Notes under the pieces: model-generated
What the model was told of the DNA's origin: nothing
The model's database searches: none
Seen by the model: only the letters and a program-made list of their open reading frames with translations
Source: Promethearchaeota archaeon
GTDB taxonomy: Archaea; Asgardarchaeota; Lokiarchaeia; Sigyniarchaeales; SOKP01
Assembly: GCA_048940605.1 (NCBI GenBank)
Contig: JBHLOJ010000001.1
Location: 9,185 to 73,184 of the forward strand
DNA: 64,000 nt
Direction of reading: 5' to 3'
Shown: in pieces, positions 32,143-51,115 of the stretch
Layout: each line of letters begins with the position of its first letter
How positions within the stretch are numbered: position 1 is the first letter of the stretch
Made by a program: the position numbers and the translations under genes

Positions 32143-32413
32143 TCTTAACACCTTTCATTTCTAATTTGATGAGTTGCTTAATTTTTTTAATATAAATTGA
32201 AATCCTTTCAGGATGATACTTAATTTGATTAAAATAATGATTTAGCTGATTTTTAGCTATAGTACTAAACTTAGGATTTATCTTTACAACAATTAAGTGA
32301 AAAAATTCTTTATCGGAAAGAGTATCTACTTCTATAACAAGGTCGTTTTCTACTTTATTTTTAGTAGGGAGCTCAAAATTTGGGTGAATGCCATCAATAG
32401 CCACTGTACTCAC
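32135..32413 (-). CDS. Hypothetical 92-aa protein, overlaps the giant-gene start by 8 nt
   Basis: ORF track entry with a GTG start preceded by AAAAAGGTG. Its stop TAG (32135-32137) overlaps the giant ORF ATG (32140-32142) in the sequence ATGAGTAG. No motif recognised. Confidence 0.5.
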   Translation of the reverse strand: MSTVAIDGIHPNFELPTKNKVENDLVIEVDTLSDKEFFHLIVVKINPKFSTIAKNQLNHYFNQIKYHPERISIYIKKIKQLIKLEMKGVKNE

Positions 32414-42540: not shown

Positions 42541-44538
42541 GTGATAAAATTGAGAAAAAAACATTTTTTGATTTTGATAACTTTACTACTAACAACTCTA
42601 ATTGGACTAATTGGGATTGCTCCTCAACAAGTACATGCGGATGATCCTATATCCTATGTCCCGACTAGTTACCAAGGTAAAAAAGGATCATACAGTGGCG
42701 GCAGTCTCGACAATTTATGGGAAAAAGACTCATTATATTTTGAATGGGATGTTGAGTCTACCTATATACCACCGTTTTTTACCATATATGAATTTAAAGT
42801 AGTATTCTTTTTTGATGAGAATGTTGGCCCTGTGAATGAAATCCGCATAGAACTAAGTTTCCACCAGCAAGTCAGCATTCAAGTTCATTATGAAGATGGA
42901 AGTGCTGAAGGTGGTACTACATGGCAAGGATCGTGGAGCGTAAGTCCTAATGGAAAAGAAGTAGTTAAAATAATAGCGTCATGCATATATTTTTATCCGG
43001 CAAATCCAACATGTAGATTTAACCTGATTCGCTTATATCCAATCGCGATAGCATCCCCAGCTGATGGAGCAAGTTATTCGGAGCCAATGGAAGGATACTA
43101 TCCTGGAACATATGGTTTTGAAGATGAAATTGATGGAACCTCTGGAACAGCGATTGATTTCATTGACAGTGCATCCGCCTACTCATGGTGTAAAATCCAA
43201 GGATCTTATACAGACACTAATAATGTCATCCATAACAAAGTATTACATGTAGAAGATATGTATAGAAATTATTATACAAAAGTTAGCCATACCTTTGATT
43301 CTCCACAATACCTAGCTACTATAGATTTCTGGTTTTTGATGACAAATAAATATACTGGACCAGTTGATAAAATTCTATTTTATGCTACAGATGACCAAAA
43401 TAATATTATCTTTCGATTAAATATGGGAGATGGAAAAATCATAGATTCAGGCGAAAATGAAGCGCCTATGTCGTATAATAAGTGGTATCATATTAGAATT
43501 TACTTTGTTTCAATTTTACCTGAGGGGTATTATGATTGGTATCTAAATGATGAGTTACAATATTCCGATGTTCCCTGCGAGACTTCTTATGTATATACGT
43601 CAAAACTAGTCATCGCATCATATGATGATTATTTAACTAAAGGAGAAGCGTACTTTGACGCATTTGGGTTTGATTGGGAACCTGGTTATACTATTGGTCT
43701 TAATCGCAAAGAAGGTATATTTGTTGATATTAAACATACTAATATAGATAATCTGAATTATAGTATAGATGATGGTGAATCTATAGATATTAGAGGAGAT
43801 TTTGTTATCCCTTTCCCATTTACGAGAGATCATACCATTAAAGTAGGGGGAACGTCTGATGGTATTCCGGTAGAAAGCCCACCGACTACATTTTCATTTG
43901 ATTATGGAGAAAAATATGCCGTCCTCATTTGGAATGGACATATGAGTGGTGAGTGGCGTACAGAATATTATTCAATATTATGGGCTGAAGGATTTCATTA
44001 TATATTTCAGGATGAGAACCCAAGGAAAGAGGACGTTGCGTATCTATTATCGGATGTAGCAGATATTGCAAATGAAAATGACATTATTTTTATCTACCTG
44101 TTTGGTTGGGGATACCACACGGGGGGGATTTCTTCCATAATTTTTTTTGGTTTGCATCCAGACCATTGGATTACTTCTACACAATTGAAATATTATATAG
44201 ACCAAATTCCATCCTCGAGAAAAATGGTCTTGGTAGGGAGCTCTTTTTCAGGTCAATTTATCGAAGCTTTTGATGAAGATGGTTATATCATTATGACTTG
44301 CACCGATACAGAGTCCCATGGACATATATTTGATGAATATATTCCACCCACTGATTTTTACCATGAGGAGATTTTTGTTGATGCATTCTTTGATGAAATA
44401 ACGAATGGTGCTACTTCATATGAGGCATTCGCTATAGCTCAACCTTATATAAAGGATATGTATGAAAATGAACCTTACGATGAAAGACAAAATCCTCAAA
44501 TGTCTGATCGGTGCGATATTGATTTCTTTGGATATTAA
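42541..44538 (+). CDS. Secreted LamG-like + clan CD (caspase/legumain-like) domain protein with the catalytic dyad replaced (probable pseudo-peptidase)
   Basis: Signal peptide: IKLRKKHFLILITLLLTTLIGLIGIAPQQVHA. The LamG-like module contains WYHIRIYF...YFDAFGFDW. The C-terminal domain aligns with the paralog at 45105..47132 but reads IIFIYLFGWGYHTGG and KMVLVGSSFSGQF where the paralog has LHGHG and AHCCHAGGF. Confidence 0.8.
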   Translation: MIKLRKKHFLILITLLLTTLIGLIGIAPQQVHADDPISYVPTSYQGKKGSYSGGSLDNLWEKDSLYFEWDVESTYIPPFFTIYEFKVVFFFDENVGPVNEIRIELSFHQQVSIQVHYEDGSAEGGTTWQGSWSVSPNGKEVVKIIASCIYFYPANPTCRFNLIRLYPIAIASPADGASYSEPMEGYYPGTYGFEDEIDGTSGTAIDFIDSASAYSWCKIQGSYTDTNNVIHNKVLHVEDMYRNYYTKVSHTFDSPQYLATIDFWFLMTNKYTGPVDKILFYATDDQNNIIFRLNMGDGKIIDSGENEAPMSYNKWYHIRIYFVSILPEGYYDWYLNDELQYSDVPCETSYVYTSKLVIASYDDYLTKGEAYFDAFGFDWEPGYTIGLNRKEGIFVDIKHTNIDNLNYSIDDGESIDIRGDFVIPFPFTRDHTIKVGGTSDGIPVESPPTTFSFDYGEKYAVLIWNGHMSGEWRTEYYSILWAEGFHYIFQDENPRKEDVAYLLSDVADIANENDIIFIYLFGWGYHTGGISSIIFFGLHPDHWITSTQLKYYIDQIPSSRKMVLVGSSFSGQFIEAFDEDGYIIMTCTDTESHGHIFDEYIPPTDFYHEEIFVDAFFDEITNGATSYEAFAIAQPYIKDMYENEPYDERQNPQMSDRCDIDFFGY

Positions 44539-44732
44539 TTAATCTTAACTCCTTTTTTTTTTATTTTTTGTATTTCAGCTTTAAATTCATTAAGACCATT
44601 GATTGTTAATGATTTACCTGCATAGAAATCTACGGACTTTAGCCTTAACTGTTGAATTCTACCTATTACTCCTTCATATACTTGGTCATTTGGAAAGCCA
44701 TGAAGAAGATCAGAATGGAAGAATGTTTGCAT
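44535..44732 (-). CDS. Doubtful 65-aa ORF or gene fragment
   Basis: ORF track entry. Its C-terminal KIKKKGVKIN is the reverse complement of the neighbour's T-tract terminator. The frame stays open upstream to 44840 without a start codon, so it may be a 3' fragment. Confidence 0.25.
   Translation of the reverse strand: MQTFFHSDLLHGFPNDQVYEGVIGRIQQLRLKSVDFYAGKSLTINGLNEFKAEIQKIKKKGVKIN
44553..44569 (+). terminator. Oligo-T terminator after 42541..44538
   Basis: T10-A-T6 starts 15 nt after the TAA. A conserved TTAATCTTAACTCC precedes it. Confidence 0.45.
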
Positions 44733-45104
44733 TAAATGATATTTCCATTTATCTGAGGAGATATTAGTTCGTAACTTGAAACTACCTTGACTTTCGCTAC
44801 TAAGTTTATAATTAACTCTTATGCTTATTCTGATTAATTTCTAACTGTTCATAAATACTTGATTAATACATAAAAATTTAAATCTAGAACTCCCTAATAC
44901 TCAAAGAGTTCCATTTTTTAACCTGTAATTTCATCTTTTTTATTACCTTATTTTATTTTTTATATTTTTTTTTGGAGGATCAGTTTATTCCTCTTTTTTC
45001 ATAAGTCCTAAAGATATTTAAATATTCAAAATTCTTAAAAAGCATATCTACAAAAAAATCCAAGTTTTAAAAATTCAATAAATAATTCATAAAGTGTTAT
45101 AAAT

Positions 45105-47132
45105 ATGAGAATTAAAAACAAAAACATAATGATTTTCTTCTTTTTGTGTTCAATAATACTTTCGACCTTGTTTTTTCTCAACACATTTGCCACTGTCAAT
45201 TTGAATGAACCTAATGATCCCAAAGTAGCAACAACGTCCACTGGTGTTATCAGACCAGACGGAAATATTCAAAATCAATGGGGCACCTCAGATTACTCTA
45301 GAATAGACGATGAAGTAAATAAACCAAATCCAGGGGATGGAGTTTCTAATGCTCACTCAGGTAATAACGAAATTGTCGTAGATATTTTCAGCATGGGAGA
45401 ATTCGAAGACTACGATTGTTATGATGTGTTTTCTATTAAAATACATTTAAGGTGTATGGCCATTGTTCTCCATGGCGGTTATGCAAGAATCCAGGTAACT
45501 TATAGGTTTGGTGATGAGGGAATGTGGAAAAGCCCTCTACGCACAGTAACATCTCCTTTCGGCTGGGACTGGATAACATTTACATGGGGTGCCTCGGGAG
45601 CAGATGAGTTAGATATAGATGAGTTACAGGTAAAGTTAATTGCGGATATAAGTGCTAGCGGAGAAGGGGGCGGTGTTTCTGTTGATGTTATGTATGCCGA
45701 ATTTGAATATGAACCTACAATTCGTATAATAAGTCCTGAAGATGGAGCAAGTTTCTCGGAACCAATGGAGGGATATTATCCGGCAAGTTTCGGATTTGAA
45801 AATGATATAGTTGGTCAAAATCCCTCTGGATGGGGTATTAATGAATATATAAATGTAGAAGCAGAAATTGATGGACATAAAAAAGTAGTTAAAGCAATGC
45901 CAGAAGCCGCTTTTGATTATGCCATAATGGGAAATACTTTCACAGGGCAGACATCAGGAAAGATTGAGATGTGGTATAGATGTGAAGTCGTAGAAGACTT
46001 CGATTTGTTCTATTTATATGACACTTACCAAAATGTGGCAATTAAGATAGAAAGAACAAATATTGGGAATTGGAGATATCATGGCAGAGACGGTTGGGTT
46101 GTTTTTTCGAGTGGTGAAGTCTCAGCAGATACATGGTATCATCTTCGAATCGATTTTGATTGTGAACTAGACAGGTTCGATTTTTATATTGATGGAGATT
46201 TAAAAGTAGATCATGGTCTTTTTTTCGATTGGAGAAATTCAATTGGGGAAATACGGTTAGCATCATTTAGTTTTGATGCTTTTGCATATGGATGTTATTT
46301 TGATGCAATCGGATATTCTTGGGATCCTAAATATAACATTGGAGATAATCTTAAGGAAGGTCTGTTTTTTGATATTGAACCTACTGATGCAGATGATATG
46401 TGGTATAGTTTAGATGATGGCGATCCTGTAAGCATTACAGGTGATTTTGTAATCCCATTTCCATTTACTAGACACCACACGATTAAAGTAGGCGGAACGA
46501 TTGATGGTACGGAAGTAGAAACCCCCACTACTGCTTTTTCGTTTGATTTCGGAGAAAAGATAGCAATTCTCTTTTGGCTTGATGAGGTGAATGGAACACA
46601 TATAGAAGACTATATAGAAATCTTGGAAAACGAAGGGTTTACTAAATTCTATTGTGATATGAATCTCGAACTAGGTGAGTTTTATAGTATATTTGACCAG
46701 GTGGATGCTTATGAAGATGAGAATGATATTATTTTCCTCTACTTGCATGGACATGGTGCTAGATCGGGTGATGATACAATTATACAACTTCATCCTGAAA
46801 TTACTTGGAAGTATCGTGCTACGGAGTTTATGATAGAGATGGCTCAATTGGAATCCAAACGGAAAATGGTATTAGCCCATTGCTGTCATGCGGGAGGTTT
46901 TGTTAATTATTTTGATTTTGAACCATACACTGTTATCTCATCTTGTAAAATTAATGAACTTAGCCGCCATTATCCATCGGGTGAGGGTTATTTTAATCGC
47001 CCTTTCTTTGATGCTATTGAAAATGGGGCTAATGCATACCAAGCGTTTTCAATTGCATCTGCGGAAGTGGCTAGTAGTGGTATGACACCGCAGATCTCTG
47101 ATTTATGCGATATTACCTTCTTTGCATATTAA
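45105..47132 (+). CDS. Secreted LamG-like + clan CD (caspase/legumain-like) cysteine peptidase domain protein, catalytic His/Cys present
   Basis: Signal peptide: MRIKNKNIMIFFFLCSIILSTLFFLNTFA. LamG-like module: WYHLRIDFDCELDRFDFYIDGDLKV...YFDAIGYSWDPKYNIGDN. The C-terminal domain has NDIIFLYLHGHGARSG (His-Gly, nt 46743-46757) and RKMVLAHCCHAGGF (Cys, nt 46881-46886), as in C13/C14-type peptidases. Confidence 0.8.
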   Translation: MRIKNKNIMIFFFLCSIILSTLFFLNTFATVNLNEPNDPKVATTSTGVIRPDGNIQNQWGTSDYSRIDDEVNKPNPGDGVSNAHSGNNEIVVDIFSMGEFEDYDCYDVFSIKIHLRCMAIVLHGGYARIQVTYRFGDEGMWKSPLRTVTSPFGWDWITFTWGASGADELDIDELQVKLIADISASGEGGGVSVDVMYAEFEYEPTIRIISPEDGASFSEPMEGYYPASFGFENDIVGQNPSGWGINEYINVEAEIDGHKKVVKAMPEAAFDYAIMGNTFTGQTSGKIEMWYRCEVVEDFDLFYLYDTYQNVAIKIERTNIGNWRYHGRDGWVVFSSGEVSADTWYHLRIDFDCELDRFDFYIDGDLKVDHGLFFDWRNSIGEIRLASFSFDAFAYGCYFDAIGYSWDPKYNIGDNLKEGLFFDIEPTDADDMWYSLDDGDPVSITGDFVIPFPFTRHHTIKVGGTIDGTEVETPTTAFSFDFGEKIAILFWLDEVNGTHIEDYIEILENEGFTKFYCDMNLELGEFYSIFDQVDAYEDENDIIFLYLHGHGARSGDDTIIQLHPEITWKYRATEFMIEMAQLESKRKMVLAHCCHAGGFVNYFDFEPYTVISSCKINELSRHYPSGEGYFNRPFFDAIENGANAYQAFSIASAEVASSGMTPQISDLCDITFFAY

Positions 47133-47149
47133 CTAATCTTAACTCCCAC

Positions 47150-47169
47150 TTTTTTTTTTATTTTTTTTT
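47150..47169 (+). terminator. Oligo-T terminator after 45105..47132 (between convergent genes)
   Basis: T10-A-T9 starts 18 nt after the TAA. CTAATCTTAACTCC precedes it, 13/14 identical to the sequence after the paralog. Confidence 0.45.
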
Positions 47170-47205
47170 ATCTTATGTGGTGATTGTAGTATTTGAAAGA
47201 TCAGT

Positions 47206-47406
47206 TTATTCCTCTTTTTTCGTAAGTTTTAACTGCTGTTTTTTATAGATGAGCTCGATCAACTCTTTAATTGCTTTACGACCTCCCGCAATGAATAATT
47301 CAGTAGCAGATCGATAAAATGGACACGCTTCGATAAGTTCTAGGGCTTCTTGTACCAAATAGTCTGGAATTGCGACACTATGATATTTTGATTTCTTTTT
47401 TGCCAT
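47206..47406 (-). CDS. Ribbon-helix-helix (CopG/Arc-like) DNA-binding protein
   Basis: HSVAIPDYLVQEALELIEACPFYRSATELFIAGGRKAIKELI fits beta-strand, helix, helix. GAGGTGA lies 7 nt upstream of the ATG. Confidence 0.55.
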   Translation of the reverse strand: MAKKKSKYHSVAIPDYLVQEALELIEACPFYRSATELFIAGGRKAIKELIELIYKKQQLKLTKKEE

Positions 47407-47417
47407 GTTTTTTCACC

Positions 47418-48056
47418 TCAGATTGTATAGAGCATTAGCCATCGTCTTTTAAAAATAATACTCTCATTTACCAAGCAATTCTGGTTATGAACCACTATCT
47501 CCCCATATTTACAGGCATAAAAAAGTTGATCGACTAAGCGATTATTTCGAAATAAGGCATCACCCGTTATTTTCATCTCGGGATTGATAGAGTAGAGGGC
47601 TTCTAGGAGGGATTCAAAGACACCGAGTTGAAGATTAATGATGGGGATCTCTTCAATATGAGTATACTTGGATAGCTCGATATCTTGACATTCTAAATAG
47701 TGATAAATCTTCTTTATCTCTATTTTTTCGTGGTCACTAAAGGTAAAAAAAACTAGACACTCAAAACTACTTAGAATTTTCATCAGAAGTAAGTACAGTT
47801 CTACCTTATACTCATAATCCTCGATATAAAAAGAAAATAAGGTGTCAAATACCATGAGTCCCACCATGAAAACAGGGTTGCCTTCAAAATCTAAGATTGC
47901 TGCTTGATGGATAATCGGAGTAGATAAAGATTTAAGTACAAGCTTCACATGGTCTCCTCTATCGATGGATTTCAATTCTTTAATAATTTTTTCATAATCA
48001 AAAGTTCGGGTGATTGTATAGGCATAATTCCATTTTTTCAACTCATTCATCCCCAT
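47418..48056 (-). CDS. Hypothetical protein (212 aa); weak resemblance to an RNase H-fold/DEDD-type exonuclease
   Basis: Overlaps the upstream gene by 14 nt (ATGGGGATGAATGA). AAILDFEGNP...LVFFTFSDHEKIEI is a loose D-x-E ... (N/S)-x2-(F/S)-D pattern only. Confidence 0.6.
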   Translation of the reverse strand: MGMNELKKWNYAYTITRTFDYEKIIKELKSIDRGDHVKLVLKSLSTPIIHQAAILDFEGNPVFMVGLMVFDTLFSFYIEDYEYKVELYLLLMKILSSFECLVFFTFSDHEKIEIKKIYHYLECQDIELSKYTHIEEIPIINLQLGVFESLLEALYSINPEMKITGDALFRNNRLVDQLFYACKYGEIVVHNQNCLVNESIIFKRRWLMLYTI

Positions 48057-50340
48057 CCCTGAGAGTAAATTCTTTTAGGAACTTTACAATGGAAAAATAC
48101 ATTAAACTCACAAAATACATCGCATTAATGAGCTTCTCTTCTTTATCATCGCTCTCATTTCTAACCTCTCCGATGGAGTGACGGGCGATATCGAGGAGAG
48201 CAGACACTTCCTTTTTTAATAGTTCGAGTGAATTTTTCTGATTCTGAGGTAAGATTAGAGATTTTTCATTTATCAATGTAATGTCAATGATTAAATACAC
48301 TGCAATACTGTACATATTTTCAGTTTGAGTAAGAAAATTGGAAAATTCCCATTGGTTTTTGAATAATTCGAGTAAATACTCTTGATTTTCTTGAATAAAG
48401 ACCGGTGATTTGGTATTAAAGAAAAACTCATGGTAATATAGAGTAGTCAGGCAATTGTAGAAAACTGGAAAGCTAATAGTATCTGTAAGTAGATGTAATC
48501 TCAGCAAATCAAGTATTTTATTCTTATTTTCTATCTCTATATCTTGTAATAATCTGTTAATTTCAATAGATAGTTTTCTCTCCTCTATCCCATTCTTATT
48601 AAGAACTCGTTTATAAATATAGTTATAGACTCCTCGTAGTTCATAGAAGTGATGCCAAAAATGAAATGAATTGGGTGTCCTTCTCATCGCGTAGGTAGTG
48701 CCAAATCTCAACAAGGTGGCAAAACTGGGATACAATTTATCAGGACGTAAGAGCATCTGGACATGGTCTCGAGTGATGGTATTTGGTTTCTGTAAGAACA
48801 GGTCTGCGTCATTTGTATCAAATTTATCTAGCACAGCTTTGATTTTCGCATCCTCTAGTACATTACTATACGTTAAATATCGCTCAGAAATCCCTTCTCC
48901 TTTTCCATCGGAAATAGGAATTGAGACCAATCGACTTAGAGGATGAGGAGAGAAGAGGCGAAATACACCTTTATTCACGCTTGAAGTATCTAACAATATC
49001 GCTATTAAATCCTTCGAATCGACTGCTAACCGAAAAAGCTGTTGCCCATGAAGAATCTTTAATTTTCTGCGGATTTCGGGAGGGACGACAATGGTTTCCT
49101 TGTATACCGTATAAAGGAGTAGCGATTGTAAGAGAGACTTTATAAACTTGAATTTATCGTTCAAACTACTAATTTTTTCTTTTTTCAATGTGGTGATCCC
49201 TGGAAGTAACGAATTATCTGCTAACTCGGGTAAATTGACATGATGTTCAATGTCGGTAATCGTATCATAGTCCATCGCATATAACAGATGGATTCCTCTG
49301 GAACCGCTGAAAATCATCTTAAAAGACGGAAGTCCTAAACCTTGAGCGGTAGTATTTATTGCCTGTGCGATATTGGTAGTGAGTTCCCAAATAGTCTGTC
49401 GCGAAAACATACTGGAAAGGAGTGAAGGGATATCAATATCAATAAGCAGGTAAAGGATATCATTGTTGGTACTTCTTACGCTTAAATAAATTCCTCCAAT
49501 ATCGTTCTCTTGTACAATTTCCTTATATTTTTCATAGGGGGTATTCTTTGAGAGTAATTGGTGAAACTTCATCTTGGTATCTTTTAATGATACAGTTCTT
49601 CGTTTTGCTGGAAATTTATCTTCCTTAACAATATCTAAGGTGATCTCCGCATTCCCTTGAAAGTTATCAGGGAACATGTACGTTTTTAGGATTTCATAGA
49701 ATTTGGGATGTTGAAGATACTCGGTGTCGTCCGTTGATAAAAAATCGTGCAATTCGTCATATTCTTTGCGTTCCAAGTTATGCTCTAAGACTTGATCATA
49801 TTCCTCTGTTCCTTTCCTTTGGATATAGACCTTTCCGATGATTTGTTGAGCAAAGGTAAACTCGTCAAGAGCCCACATCTTTATAAAAGCAACTATATCT
49901 CGGAGTTTTACTAATCGCAAGTTAAATTCCATTGAGATAATATCCATGCGATTACTTTCTCTGGTGTACTCGTTTTTTACCAGATATTCTAATCTCTGGA
50001 GTTTTATACCATCTTTAAACACATAATAGCGATCAATAGTGAAGTTGAGTTTATTCATTAAATTTGAGATGGCATACTTAATCATATCTTTGGTCTTATC
50101 GAAGGTAGCTTCCGTTTCATGGCTTTTAATCACTCCTTCTTCATAGAGAGTGTTGATAACATCAATATCAGGGCTAAGGATTTCCAGTTGCACTTTTACT
50201 TTTTGAATTCGATTATAAATGTCATCTTTTCCTTTGGTAAATTCAGTTCGTAATATATCAATAAACTGCCTGAAGTCAAAGGTGGACGTGGAGATATCTT
50301 CCAGTAAGTAGTCAATCTTCGAAGCATAATAGAGACTCAT
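48043..50340 (-). CDS. Archaeo-eukaryotic primase (AEP) superfamily primase-polymerase-like protein (765 aa from Met-20 of the track ORF)
   Basis: Motif I: YLLIDIDIP (about nt 49430-49445). Motif II: MIFSGSRGIHLLY (about nt 49287-49310). Motif III: ILLDTSSVNKGVFRLFSPHPLSRLVSIPI (about nt 48938-48996). These correspond to DxD, sGxGxH and D...R..S.H of PriS/PrimPol. The start was moved to ATG 50338-50340, which sits 1 nt after the upstream stop at 50342-50344. Confidence 0.75.
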   Translation of the reverse strand: MSLYYASKIDYLLEDISTSTFDFRQFIDILRTEFTKGKDDIYNRIQKVKVQLEILSPDIDVINTLYEEGVIKSHETEATFDKTKDMIKYAISNLMNKLNFTIDRYYVFKDGIKLQRLEYLVKNEYTRESNRMDIISMEFNLRLVKLRDIVAFIKMWALDEFTFAQQIIGKVYIQRKGTEEYDQVLEHNLERKEYDELHDFLSTDDTEYLQHPKFYEILKTYMFPDNFQGNAEITLDIVKEDKFPAKRRTVSLKDTKMKFHQLLSKNTPYEKYKEIVQENDIGGIYLSVRSTNNDILYLLIDIDIPSLLSSMFSRQTIWELTTNIAQAINTTAQGLGLPSFKMIFSGSRGIHLLYAMDYDTITDIEHHVNLPELADNSLLPGITTLKKEKISSLNDKFKFIKSLLQSLLLYTVYKETIVVPPEIRRKLKILHGQQLFRLAVDSKDLIAILLDTSSVNKGVFRLFSPHPLSRLVSIPISDGKGEGISERYLTYSNVLEDAKIKAVLDKFDTNDADLFLQKPNTITRDHVQMLLRPDKLYPSFATLLRFGTTYAMRRTPNSFHFWHHFYELRGVYNYIYKRVLNKNGIEERKLSIEINRLLQDIEIENKNKILDLLRLHLLTDTISFPVFYNCLTTLYYHEFFFNTKSPVFIQENQEYLLELFKNQWEFSNFLTQTENMYSIAVYLIIDITLINEKSLILPQNQKNSLELLKKEVSALLDIARHSIGEVRNESDDKEEKLINAMYFVSLMYFSIVKFLKEFTLRDGDE

Positions 50341-50341
50341 C

Positions 50342-51115
50342 CTAGACCACCCCCTCCACTTTTTTGTTTTCTGCCATGCTGTGTTGTAAAAAGGCATTTA
50401 AATCCTCTTGGAAGTCATTGTCCACTAGTACGTTAAAATATTTTACTAACAATAGCAATTTACATAAAAGCGATATGCCGAAACTCTTCATGTTAAATTC
50501 AAAAGTGCCTTGCTTGGATTTGAGTAAATCAAGTACAGTTGAGTTCTGGAGATCGGCTTGAAATTTTTTGTAAGAATCTTCAAAAAGGAGTTTTAGCTCT
50601 TCTTTGGTGGTCAATACTGGAGAAATTGGATTGTGAGGGGGAGATATGCCTTGAGAAGGAGTAGTACCACTGGTGGAAAGCACCCCTTCTTGAAGATTCT
50701 TGTGTGCCATTCCCTGATTTTTATCTATGGTAGTGTTTTCTGGAGTGGTTTCAATGCCATTTTTCTGAAGCTCGGAGAAGGTGTAGGTCTCCTCTAGGGG
50801 AACAATTACTTTAGGGTGATTTTTACAATAGAATGTTAAAGAGCGAATGGTAATTTGGCTCTCATGAGGATGAAGTATATTCTCAAGCGGAAAAAAAAGA
50901 GTAAAATAATGGGAATTATATTCAATATTTCTGTTATAAATCCTACATTGTTCTTTCACCTTCTTGAGAGGATCATTTATTAAACTAATTTCATAATTGA
51001 CAGTTACACTTTTCAGATGCTCAGGAGTGATATACTGGTCCTTATCTACTCCATTTCTTTCACAAAAAATCGAAATACCACTGTCTATATGAAACTTAAT
51101 ATTTAACACGTTCAT
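50342..51115 (-). CDS. Hypothetical protein (257 aa), first gene of the AEP operon
   Basis: ORF track entry. It has two domains joined by a low-complexity linker (TSGTTPSQGISPPHNPISP). No motif recognised. Confidence 0.65.
   Translation of the reverse strand: MNVLNIKFHIDSGISIFCERNGVDKDQYITPEHLKSVTVNYEISLINDPLKKVKEQCRIYNRNIEYNSHYFTLFFPLENILHPHESQITIRSLTFYCKNHPKVIVPLEETYTFSELQKNGIETTPENTTIDKNQGMAHKNLQEGVLSTSGTTPSQGISPPHNPISPVLTTKEELKLLFEDSYKKFQADLQNSTVLDLLKSKQGTFEFNMKSFGISLLCKLLLLVKYFNVLVDNDFQEDLNAFLQHSMAENKKVEGVV

What the first reader, a model, noticed from the sequence alone, without database searches (positions are those of the whole stretch)
42541..47132. Tandem secreted paralogs: one clan-CD peptidase with an intact His/Cys dyad next to a copy with both catalytic residues replaced
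The two 665/675-aa proteins share architecture: signal peptide, N-terminal beta domain, LamG-like module, a conserved linker (FVIPFPFTR-HTIKVGGT-DG) and a C-terminal caspase/legumain-like domain. The downstream copy keeps LYLHGHG and LAHCCHAGGF. The upstream copy has IYLFGWG (His to Trp) and LVGSSFSGQF (Cys-Cys-His to Ser-Ser-Phe). It nevertheless keeps an intact 665-aa frame, a signal peptide and the surrounding fold motifs. Active-enzyme plus pseudo-enzyme pairs often act as regulator, substrate-adaptor or decoy. Here both copies also carry the lectin-like module shared with the giant surface protein.
Basis: partly seen in the sequence, partly recalled or inferred. Interest (0 to 1): 0.6.

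Follow-up and report, generated by a model that had tools for sequence, protein, structure and literature searches.

The report
Active and dead caspase-fold peptidase paralogs
Two neighbouring genes of an Asgard archaeon encode secreted lectin-plus-peptidase proteins; one keeps the catalytic His/Cys pair of caspase/legumain-type enzymes and the other has lost both yet is kept by selection, a familiar pseudoenzyme pattern seen here in an archaeon.

Summary
ORFs 42541-44538 (A, 665 aa) and 45105-47132 (B, 675 aa) are paralogs: 38% identity over 515 aa, E 2e-79. Their C-terminal ~200 aa belong to a large uncharacterised family, 2,336 relatives in 1.84 billion representatives. Most members tested hit Pfam Peptidase_C13.

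AlphaFold models of both domains are confident (pLDDT 93 and 90). Both match MALT1, caspases and metacaspase-9 in the PDB (Foldseek E ~5e-9).

They align with the catalytic His/Cys motifs of GPI8 and legumain-type enzymes. B has His550/Cys594. A has Trp523/Ser568.

A is not a decaying pseudogene:
- A same-genus genome encodes a relative with Tyr/Ser at the same positions.
- The two dead domains form a well-supported clade, sister to the clade containing B.
- Their dN/dS (~0.22) is like that of active pairs (~0.18).

The pair is tandem only in this genome. The genes look separately transcribed. A has also lost two acidic positions that I infer line the specificity pocket.

Whether A acts with B is untested. 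This is a new archaeal variant of a known kind, of moderate interest.

The parts
42541..44538 (+). Gene A: 665-aa secreted pseudo-peptidase. GTG start; the database calls a TTG start at 42550, giving 662 aa.
   Evidence: ORF. Paralog of B, E 2e-79. Identical in contigs of two runs.
42541..42639 (+). A: predicted Sec-type signal peptide (residues 1-33, cleavage after VHA)
   Evidence: Read from the sequence. Inference; no predictor was run.
42640..43041 (+). A: N-terminal domain (residues 34-167) with no detectable relatives
   Evidence: No Pfam hit. No BLAST similarity to B's N-domain or to 214 collected relatives.
43042..43875 (+). A: concanavalin/LamG-like module plus conserved beta-rich linker (residues 168-445)
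   Evidence: Aligns to B206-472. In module alignment A4, 7/18 members hit Laminin_G_3 and 6/18 hit Sialidase-like_CBM.
43903..44535 (+). A: caspase-fold domain without the catalytic dyad (residues 455-665)
   Evidence: AF2 pLDDT 90.3. Foldseek hits MALT1 and caspases at E ~8e-9. Profile hit E 3e-92.
44107..44109 (+). A: Trp523 (TGG) at the catalytic His position
   Evidence: This column is His in 28/28 active-type relatives.
44242..44244 (+). A: Ser568 (TCT) at the catalytic Cys position
   Evidence: This column is Cys in 28/28 active-type relatives.
44539..44570 (+). Conserved post-stop block TTAATCTTAACTCC plus T-tract after gene A, terminator-like
   Evidence: Sequence. The same block follows gene B.
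45105..47132 (+). Gene B: 675-aa secreted clan-CD peptidase with an intact dyad
   Evidence: ORF. Peptidase_C14 hit at E 1.4e-3 for the whole protein, and 22.5 bits (above the 21.4 cut-off) for the domain alone.
45105..45191 (+). B: predicted signal peptide (residues 1-29, cleavage after TFA)
   Evidence: Read from the sequence. Inference.
45192..45719 (+). B: N-terminal accessory domain (residues 30-205) that recurs in other members of the peptidase family
   Evidence: BLASTP to P0097 (49% identity, E 6e-49), P0092, P0184, P0121, P0109 and others.
45720..46520 (+). B: concanavalin/LamG-like module plus linker (residues 206-472)
   Evidence: Laminin_G_3 hit, E 3.4e-4, below cut-off. Most of the 66 homologs cover only about 31-48% of B.
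46551..47129 (+). B: caspase-fold peptidase domain (residues 483-675)
   Evidence: AF2 pLDDT 93.2, pTM 0.89. Foldseek hits MALT1, caspase-7 and metacaspase-9. Family profile vs PDB: GPI8 at E 4.8e-8.
46752..46754 (+). B: catalytic His550 (CAT) in the G-H-G motif
46884..46886 (+). B: catalytic Cys594 (TGT), the second Cys of HCC
47133..47170 (+). Conserved post-stop block CTAATCTTAACTCC plus T-tract after gene B

Best explanation
B is a secreted cysteine peptidase, or possibly a transpeptidase, of the caspase/legumain superfamily (clan CD). Its catalytic domain sits at the C-terminus. It is preceded by a signal peptide, a family-associated accessory domain and a concanavalin/LamG-type carbohydrate-binding-like module. 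That module probably tethers the enzyme to a glycosylated surface or polymer.

A arose from the same LamG-linked lineage by duplication. It lost the catalytic His (now Trp) and Cys (now Ser). It also lost two of three acidic positions that I infer line the S1 pocket. It swapped its N-terminal domain, but kept the fold and most conserved core residues.

A is therefore a catalytically dead pseudo-peptidase. Selection maintains it for a non-catalytic job, most likely binding through the remodelled cleft together with its own diverged lectin module.

Shown in silico: homology, fold, position of the dyad, its loss in A, purifying selection on A's lineage, and co-occurrence of a dead and a live copy in two genomes.

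Inferred: secretion, activity of B, and a non-catalytic role for A.

Speculative (my estimate ~25-30%): A works together with B as regulator, partner or decoy.
For: Paralogy: E 2e-79.

Family:
- 2,336 relatives at E<=1e-3.
- The dyad columns are His and Cys in 160 of 190 aligned domains, and in 28/28 of the active-type set.
- 24/30 members hit Pfam Peptidase_C13, best E 8e-11, and 7/30 hit C14.
- In the profile-to-PDB search, GPI8 scores E 4.8e-8, followed by legumains, asparaginyl ligases and metacaspases. GHG aligns on the catalytic His and SC on the catalytic Cys.

Fold: AF2 pLDDT 93.2 and 90.3. Foldseek finds MALT1, caspases and metacaspase-9 for both domains.

Maintenance of A:
- A same-genus genome encodes a 1,074-aa relative with Tyr/Ser at the dyad, 46% identical in the domain.
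- A and this relative form a 100/99 clade, sister to B+P0004+P0068. A's terminal branch is 0.98, against 0.91-1.45 for the active ones.
- pN 0.37 vs pS 0.72, dN/dS ~0.22, against 0.18 for an active pair.
- Among 29 strongly conserved columns, both pseudo domains differ from the active consensus at only 4.

That same genome also has an active-type LamG-linked copy.

LamG module.
Against: - There is no biochemical or expression evidence of any kind.
- Full-length B scores below Pfam cut-offs for both C13 and C14.
- B departs from the family consensus at two of the three acidic pocket columns (His at Cys-2, Lys after beta5). Its specificity, and even its activity, are uncertain.
- The dead clade is known from only two species-level genomes.
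- In the other genome the dead and live copies lie on different contigs and are not adjacent.
- A and B each have their own TATA-like box and T-tract terminator, so nothing ties their expression together.
- dS is saturated, so dN/dS values are rough.
- The alignment used to model A is dominated by active members. That may inflate confidence that the fold is retained.
Confidence: 0.75

Rival explanations
1. A and B act as a functional pair. The dead domain would heterodimerise with or regulate the live one, as c-FLIP does with caspase-8. Alternatively A would be a processed substrate or partner of B, as the T. brucei pseudopeptidase MCA4 is of MCA3. A could also be a decoy that competes for B's substrates or inhibitors.
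For: - The genes lie in tandem, 566 nt apart on the same strand.
- A dead and a live LamG-linked copy co-occur in both genomes that carry the dead clade.
- The linker region has unusually low synonymous divergence (pS 0.34-0.46 against ~0.7 elsewhere), and the 3' flanks are conserved. This suggests continuing sequence exchange between the two genes.
- Precedents exist: the caspase-8:c-FLIP complex 3h11 is among the Foldseek hits, and MCA4/MCA3 is described in PMC3220528.
Against: - The genes are not adjacent in the second genome.
- The close active relative P0068 has no dead neighbour on its 9.5-kb contig. P0004's 2.6-kb contig holds only the gene itself, so it says nothing either way.
- A's pocket residues and N-terminal domain have diverged from B's. 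A simple substrate-mimicking decoy is therefore unlikely.
- Legumain and metacaspases are monomeric (background knowledge).
- No complex prediction could be run.
Confidence: 0.27
2. A and B are independent secreted proteins that are neighbours only because of the duplication history. A's caspase-fold domain has been repurposed as a binding or structural module unrelated to B.
For: - Each gene has its own promoter-like and terminator-like signals.
- The N-domains differ and the LamG modules have diverged to ~40% identity.
- A's LamG module resembles that of P0068 by eye. No pairwise comparison with B's module was run.
- The dead and live copies are unlinked in the other genome.
- Dead domains arise repeatedly in this family, for example P0120 with Trp/Gly and P0131 with His/Ser.
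Against: The two types co-occur in both genomes that carry the dead clade. The linker and 3' flank similarity hints at ongoing exchange.
Confidence: 0.4
3. A is still an enzyme. It would use Ser568, or another residue such as the clade-specific Cys/His in MTCTD..SHGH, as the nucleophile or as a metal site.
For: - Cys-to-Ser keeps a potential nucleophile.
- The motifs GHMSGEW and MTCTDxxSHGH are identical in both dead-clade members and contain Cys, Asp and His.
- Purifying selection acts on the domain.
Against: - The general-base His is replaced by Trp or Tyr.
- Known clan-CD variants with Ser or Tyr/Ser are presumed or shown to be inactive (PMC3220528; PMC6426788).
- The geometry of the model could not be inspected.
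Confidence: 0.07
4. A is a decaying pseudogene, or the substitutions are assembly errors.
For: Both catalytic residues are gone, and no Pfam family is detected for A.
Against: - The frame is intact over 665 codons.
- The sequence is identical in contigs of two runs.
- A conserved relative has the same type of replacements.
- dN/dS is ~0.22.
- The fold prediction is confident.
Confidence: 0.03

Closest known systems
MEROPS family C13 (legumain, GPI8/PIGK transamidase, plant asparaginyl ligases), clan CD
   Same: - His-Gly ... (Ser/Ala)-Cys order.
- Best sequence-profile matches in the PDB (GPI8 at E 4.8e-8).
- 24/30 family members hit Pfam Peptidase_C13.
- The proteins are secreted or extracytoplasmic.
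   Different: - B alone does not reach the C13 cut-off (12.5 bits against 22.8).
- There is no legumain-type C-terminal prodomain. The peptidase domain is the C-terminal end of the protein.
- Family pocket columns are acidic (D/E, E/D, D). I infer this fits basic rather than Asn P1 specificity.
- The domain is fused to a LamG module.
Family C14 (caspases, metacaspases, orthocaspases, MALT1 paracaspase)
   Same: - Best structural matches: MALT1, caspase-7 and metacaspase-9, TM 0.63-0.72.
- The xSCHSGG motif of close relatives resembles the metacaspase DxCHSG motif.
- B's domain alone scores 22.5 bits, above the 21.4 cut-off.
   Different: - Only 7/30 family members hit C14, against 24/30 for C13.
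- No p10 subunit or linker was identified.
- The proteins are extracellular rather than cytosolic.
Bacterial pseudo-orthocaspases (Klemencic et al. 2019, PMC6426788)
   Same: These are dead clan-CD domains with Tyr and Ser in place of His and Cys, and the fold is predicted to be unchanged. The G228 relative of A has exactly Tyr/Ser.
   Different: - That survey found none among 93 archaeal sequences.
- Those proteins belong to C14 and keep an acidic specificity pocket (section heading). A has lost two of three acidic columns.
- A is C13-like, apparently secreted and LamG-fused.
- The origin is independent.
Trypanosoma brucei MCA4 pseudopeptidase with active MCA3 (PMC3220528)
   Same: A catalytically inactive metacaspase homologue that is released from the cell and interacts with an active paralog (abstract). 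From memory, its catalytic Cys is replaced by Ser.
   Different: MCA4 is a eukaryotic C14 protein. From memory, it retains the catalytic His. No interaction between A and B has been shown here.
c-FLIP / caspase-8
   Same: A dead paralog lies next to a live protease gene and regulates it through protease-domain heterodimers. Complex 3h11 is among the fold hits.
   Different: That system is an intracellular animal signalling system. Dimerisation of the archaeal domains is untested.

Membership tests
Clan CD (caspase/hemoglobinase fold cysteine peptidases) | Alpha/beta/alpha sandwich with the caspase-type central sheet | tested here: met
   AF2 models have pLDDT 93.2 (B) and 90.3 (A). Foldseek gives probability 1.00 to MALT1, caspases and metacaspase-9, with 220 and 183 PDB hits at E<=1e-3.
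Clan CD (caspase/hemoglobinase fold cysteine peptidases) | Catalytic dyad with His (followed by Gly) before Cys in the sequence, each just after a core beta-strand | tested here: met
   For B: His550 follows strand 73-79 and Cys594 follows strand 117-123 of the model. Both are invariant in 28/28 relatives and align to the catalytic motifs of GPI8 and the legumain-type ligases.
Clan CD, applied to protein A as an active enzyme | Presence of the His/Cys dyad | tested here: not met
   A has Trp523 and Ser568 at the two columns. A is a homolog of the clan but is not filed as a peptidase.
MEROPS/Pfam family C13 (PF01650) | Score above the Pfam gathering cut-off | tested here: inconclusive
   B scores 12.5 bits against 22.8, so it does not pass on its own. 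24/30 close family members match at E<=0.01, best 8.2e-11. MEROPS itself was not available.
MEROPS/Pfam family C14 (PF00656) | Score above the Pfam gathering cut-off | tested here: inconclusive
   Whole-protein B scores 18.8 bits, below 21.4. The domain alone scores 22.5 bits, above 21.4. Only 7/30 relatives match.
Concanavalin A-like lectin/glucanase superfamily (Laminin_G_3 / Sialidase-like CBM) | Profile match of the middle module | tested here: inconclusive
   B's module scores 21.2 bits, below 27.6. Of 18 module homologs, 7 match Laminin_G_3 (best 1.5e-8) and 6 match Sialidase-like_CBM (best 6.9e-9). PDB profile hits are weak (S-layer domain protein at E 4e-3, pentraxins). No structure was predicted for this part.
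Pseudoenzyme (dead homolog maintained by selection) | Catalytic residues lost, fold kept, purifying selection, conservation across species | tested here: met
   The caveats are that only two species carry the clade and that dS is saturated.
Active-enzyme / pseudoenzyme working pair | Physical or regulatory interaction between the two proteins | not testable with these tools
   No multimer prediction, expression data or biochemistry was available. The only evidence is tandem position in one genome and co-occurrence in two genomes.

The most novel reading that the evidence does not exclude
The dead copy is a dedicated partner of the live one on the Asgard cell surface. It could be a c-FLIP-like heterodimeric regulator or an MCA4-like processed cofactor. 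Pseudo-protease control of clan-CD peptidases would then exist in the archaeal lineage closest to eukaryotes.

Alternatively, the clade-specific conserved Cys/Asp/His motifs (GHMSGEW, MTCTDxxSHGH) could form a new ligand- or metal-binding site on a caspase scaffold.
Probability: 0.15. Interest if true: 0.6.

Novelty: new variant of a known kind. Interest (0 to 1): 0.38.

Why it matters
Dead paralogs of clan-CD proteases are important regulators in eukaryotes, for example c-FLIP and trypanosome MCA4. They are widespread in bacteria as pseudo-orthocaspases. A 2019 survey found none among 93 archaeal caspase homologs (PMC6426788).

This locus gives a clean archaeal example in an Asgard genome. 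It lies in an uncharacterised, C13-like, apparently secreted family, with a live paralog next door for direct comparison.

It also shows how Asgard archaea build surface or secreted proteins. A reusable LamG-plus-linker cassette is fused to interchangeable enzyme heads.

The practical value is modest. The locus offers a defined pair of ~200-aa domains that could be expressed and compared. It does not open a long-standing question.

Tried and rejected
- Word-index homolog searches restricted to the C-terminal domains of B and of A returned only the queries themselves. The exhaustive HMM search was needed.
- A single-sequence search of B against PDB sequences found nothing relevant. Only the 30-sequence profile did.
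- P0004's contig has no DNA available.
- The first read-laying run was blocked by the T-tract filter.
- Pfam finds nothing for either N-terminal domain, for the 64-aa minus-strand ORF in the spacer, or for the small gene at 47206-47406.
- A metagenome-wide scan for more members of the dead clade found none. The GTDB scan found only the G228 locus.
- I considered that A and B form an operon. I rejected this because of the 566-nt spacer, a T-tract after A and a TATA-like box before B.
- I considered that the pair belongs to conserved synteny with the adjacent primase-polymerase operon. That operon occurs in 10 of 54 genus genomes. Among the genomes searched for the peptidase domain, none that carries the operon has a LamG-linked homolog of A or B.
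- A paper search for Asgard caspase or pseudo-caspase work gave nothing relevant. The search for Lokiarchaeota plus legumain gave one unrelated paper.

Full report
**What is there.** The window is contig C95 of a 3.48-Mb, 85%-complete genome. Homologs are named Promethearchaeota or Hodarchaeota, that is, Asgard archaea. G+C is about 33%. ORF A (42541-44538, +, 665 aa) and ORF B (45105-47132, +, 675 aa) exist as described. They are paralogs: 38% identity over 515 residues, E 2e-79, from A168/B206 to the C-termini. Gene A reads identically in contigs of two sediment-metagenome runs.

**Architecture.** Both proteins start with a basic stretch, a hydrophobic run of about 18 residues and a small-residue site (VHA|DD in A, TFA|TV in B). 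I read these as Sec signal peptides by eye. Neither protein has a C-terminal anchor.

The middle ~270 residues are a cassette found in at least 60 other Asgard proteins. It carries the motifs PMxGYYPATYGFE, WYHxRIDF, DAIGYSWDPNYNIGDN and a beta-rich tail. There it is fused to varied heads: S8 peptidase, alpha/beta-hydrolase, beta-helix, FG-GAP and TIR. Of 18 cassette sequences, 7 match Laminin_G_3 (best 1.5e-8) and 6 match Sialidase-like_CBM (best 6.9e-9). The LamG-like reading therefore holds at superfamily level. One stretch of the giant ORF (residues 5835-6081 of more than 10,717) is weakly similar: 27% identity, E 1e-9.

The N-terminal domains are not shared. B's (residues 30-205) recurs in many members of the peptidase family, for example P0097 at 49% identity and E 6e-49. 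A's has no detectable relative and no similarity to B's.

**The C-terminal domain is a clan-CD fold.** A three-sequence profile of the last ~205 residues found 2,336 proteins at E<=1e-3 among 1.84 billion representatives. In related genomes the same domain follows Ig-like or other N-terminal parts.

- Of 30 active-type members, 24 hit Pfam Peptidase_C13 (best 8.2e-11) and 7 hit Peptidase_C14. B's domain alone scores 22.5 bits on C14, against a cut-off of 21.4. Full-length B is below the cut-off for both families.
- The 30-sequence profile matches PDB sequences of GPI8/PIGK transamidase (E 4.8e-8), asparaginyl ligases, legumains and metacaspases-4/9.
- AlphaFold2 gives pLDDT 93.2 and pTM 0.89 for B's domain, and 90.3 and 0.88 for A's. 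The order of strands and helices is the same in both.
- Foldseek against the PDB returns MALT1 paracaspase, caspases-3/7/8/9/11, metacaspase-9 and a plant ligase for both models. E is ~5e-9, probability 1.00 and TM 0.63-0.72.

**Catalytic positions.**
- In the family alignment His (G-H-G) and Cys ((E/D)-S-C) are invariant in 28/28 active-type domains. They are His and Cys in 160 of 190 aligned domains.
- In the PDB alignments GHG lies on YMTGHG of GPI8 and on HG of the ligases. SC lies on IDTC and VEAC. From established knowledge of C13, these are the catalytic His and Cys motifs.
- In the model the His follows strand 73-79 and the Cys follows strand 117-123.
- B has His550 (CAT) and Cys594 (TGT, the second Cys of HCC). 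A has Trp523 (TGG) and Ser568 (TCT).

**A is maintained, not decaying.**
- Among 400 genomes of the phylum, one same-genus genome (G228, Promethearchaeota archaeon DZ2S.368) encodes a 1,074-aa protein. Its C-terminal domain is 46% identical to A's and has Tyr/Ser at the dyad: HGYG and CSSFSG.
- The two share clade-specific motifs: GHMSGEW, SSFSG, MTCTDxxSHGH, Y(I)xDxxEN and QNPQxSDRCDIxFFG.
- In a maximum-likelihood tree they form a 100/99 clade on a long stem (0.97). This clade is sister to B+P0004+P0068 (96/82), and all five form a 99/92 clade. Terminal branches of the dead pair (0.98, 0.65) are no longer than those of the live ones (0.91-1.45).
- Nei-Gojobori counts for the domain give pN 0.37, pS 0.72 and dN/dS ~0.22 for the dead pair. 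An active pair gives 0.18. dS is saturated, so these values are rough.
- Among 29 columns conserved at >=80% in active members, both dead domains differ from the active consensus at only four, including the dyad.

**Beyond the dyad.**
- Three columns are mostly acidic in active members: D/E after beta1 (22/28), E/D two residues before the Cys (24/28), and D after beta5 (20/28). I infer that these are the S1-pocket positions and that they fit basic P1 residues, by analogy with metacaspases.
- The dead clade has His, Gly/Cys and Asp at these columns. B itself has Glu, His and Lys.
- A's cleft is therefore remodelled, unlike cyanobacterial pseudo-orthocaspases, which keep an acidic pocket (PMC6426788). 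B's specificity may also be atypical.
- A's Ser codon is TCT and G228's is AGT. Each is one step from TGT (Cys), but the two are two steps from each other. The Cys may therefore have been lost twice, or the codon may have passed through Cys or Thr.
- CAT to TAT is one step. TGG needs more steps, which is consistent with Tyr as an intermediate state.

**Is it a pair?**
- G228 also has an active-type LamG-linked copy (SAHG, SACHSGG), but on another contig. The dead gene there has unrelated neighbours on both sides.
- The active relative P0068 has no dead neighbour on its 9.5-kb contig. P0004's contig is only 2.6 kb and holds just the gene.
- In the window the genes are 566 nt apart. A is followed by a T-tract, and a TATA-like TTTTAAAAA lies ~35 nt before B's ATG. 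I infer separate transcripts.
- Both stops are followed by (T/C)TAATCTTAACTCC and a T-run. A 29-nt block at 44978-45006 repeats at 47199-47227 (also noted in earlier finding e1-3241979).
- Synonymous divergence is saturated along the genes except in the linker (A382-441, pS 0.34-0.46, 72-77% nucleotide identity). This points to local gene conversion or nucleotide-level constraint.
- In short, a dead and a live copy co-occur in both genomes that carry the dead clade. Linkage and coupling are not established.

**Comparison with known systems.**
- The domain is a clan-CD member, closest in sequence to C13 and in structure to C14. The family is uncharacterised.
- Dead clan-CD paralogs are known. 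Bacterial pseudo-orthocaspases carry Tyr/Ser and were reported absent from 93 archaeal sequences (PMC6426788). T. brucei MCA4 is released from the cell and interacts with an active metacaspase (PMC3220528). c-FLIP pairs with caspase-8.
- Dead domains also arise repeatedly within this family, for example P0120 (Trp/Gly), P0131 (His/Ser), and second domains of large multi-domain proteins.

**Verdict.** The observation and the core interpretation are correct. The finding is a new archaeal, secreted, LamG-fused variant of a known phenomenon. Its function is unproven and its interest is moderate.

Noticed in passing
window 1-32151 (- strand): A single open frame of at least 10,717 aa runs off the window start. 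It is a giant protein gene with a GTG start at 32151. One internal stretch (aa 5835-6081) weakly resembles the LamG cassette of A and B (27% identity, E 1e-9).
   Followed up: partly
window 44539-44570 and 47133-47170; 44978-45006 and 47199-47227: Both paralogs are followed by the same 14-nt block (T/C)TAATCTTAACTCC plus a split T-tract. A 29-nt block in the A-B spacer repeats the 3' end of the small minus-strand gene 47206-47406. This nucleotide conservation is far higher than the 38% protein identity of the genes would predict.
   Followed up: partly
window 44566-44760 (- strand): The A-B spacer holds a 100-codon stop-to-stop frame on the minus strand, 64 aa from the first Met (MQTFFHSDLLHGFPNDQ...). 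It has no Pfam hit. It may be a remnant of a small gene duplicated along with the flank.
   Followed up: partly
window 43684-43863 (A residues 382-441) vs 46329-46508 (B residues 409-468): The linker between the LamG module and the peptidase domain has much lower synonymous divergence (pS 0.34-0.46) than the rest of the gene pair (~0.7). This suggests local gene conversion or a nucleotide-level constraint.
   Followed up: no
relatives' loci, e.g. G003:C7:8320-10665, G018:C8:14022-16298, G205:C23:5069-7396, G014:C45:1127-3454, G210:C19:37746-39656: Homologs of the window's 783-aa primase-polymerase-like protein (48043-50397) carry one or two in-frame TGA codons in five same-genus genomes. The window's own copy has none. 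Possible explanations are recoding or selenocysteine, or repeated decay.
   Followed up: no
L035 (G228:C139:25000-41077): The dead-clade relative in G228 lies in a cluster of secreted proteins. Its upstream neighbour is a secreted alpha/beta-hydrolase, and a LamG cassette fused to an alpha/beta-hydrolase head lies a few genes downstream, with an LRR protein between them. The LamG-plus-linker cassette looks like a general Asgard module for displaying interchangeable enzyme heads.
   Followed up: partly
G000:C68:5288-5914 (outside the window): This is a third, distant clan-CD homolog in the same genome: a 512-aa open frame, E 6e-13 to the family profile. Similar ~500-aa proteins occur in most same-genus genomes.
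   Followed up: no
window 44242-44244 vs L035 (G228 pseudo gene): The Ser that replaces the catalytic Cys is TCT in A but AGT in the G228 relative. Both are single-step neighbours of TGT (Cys) but not of each other. This hints at parallel loss of the Cys, or passage through Cys or Thr.
   Followed up: partly
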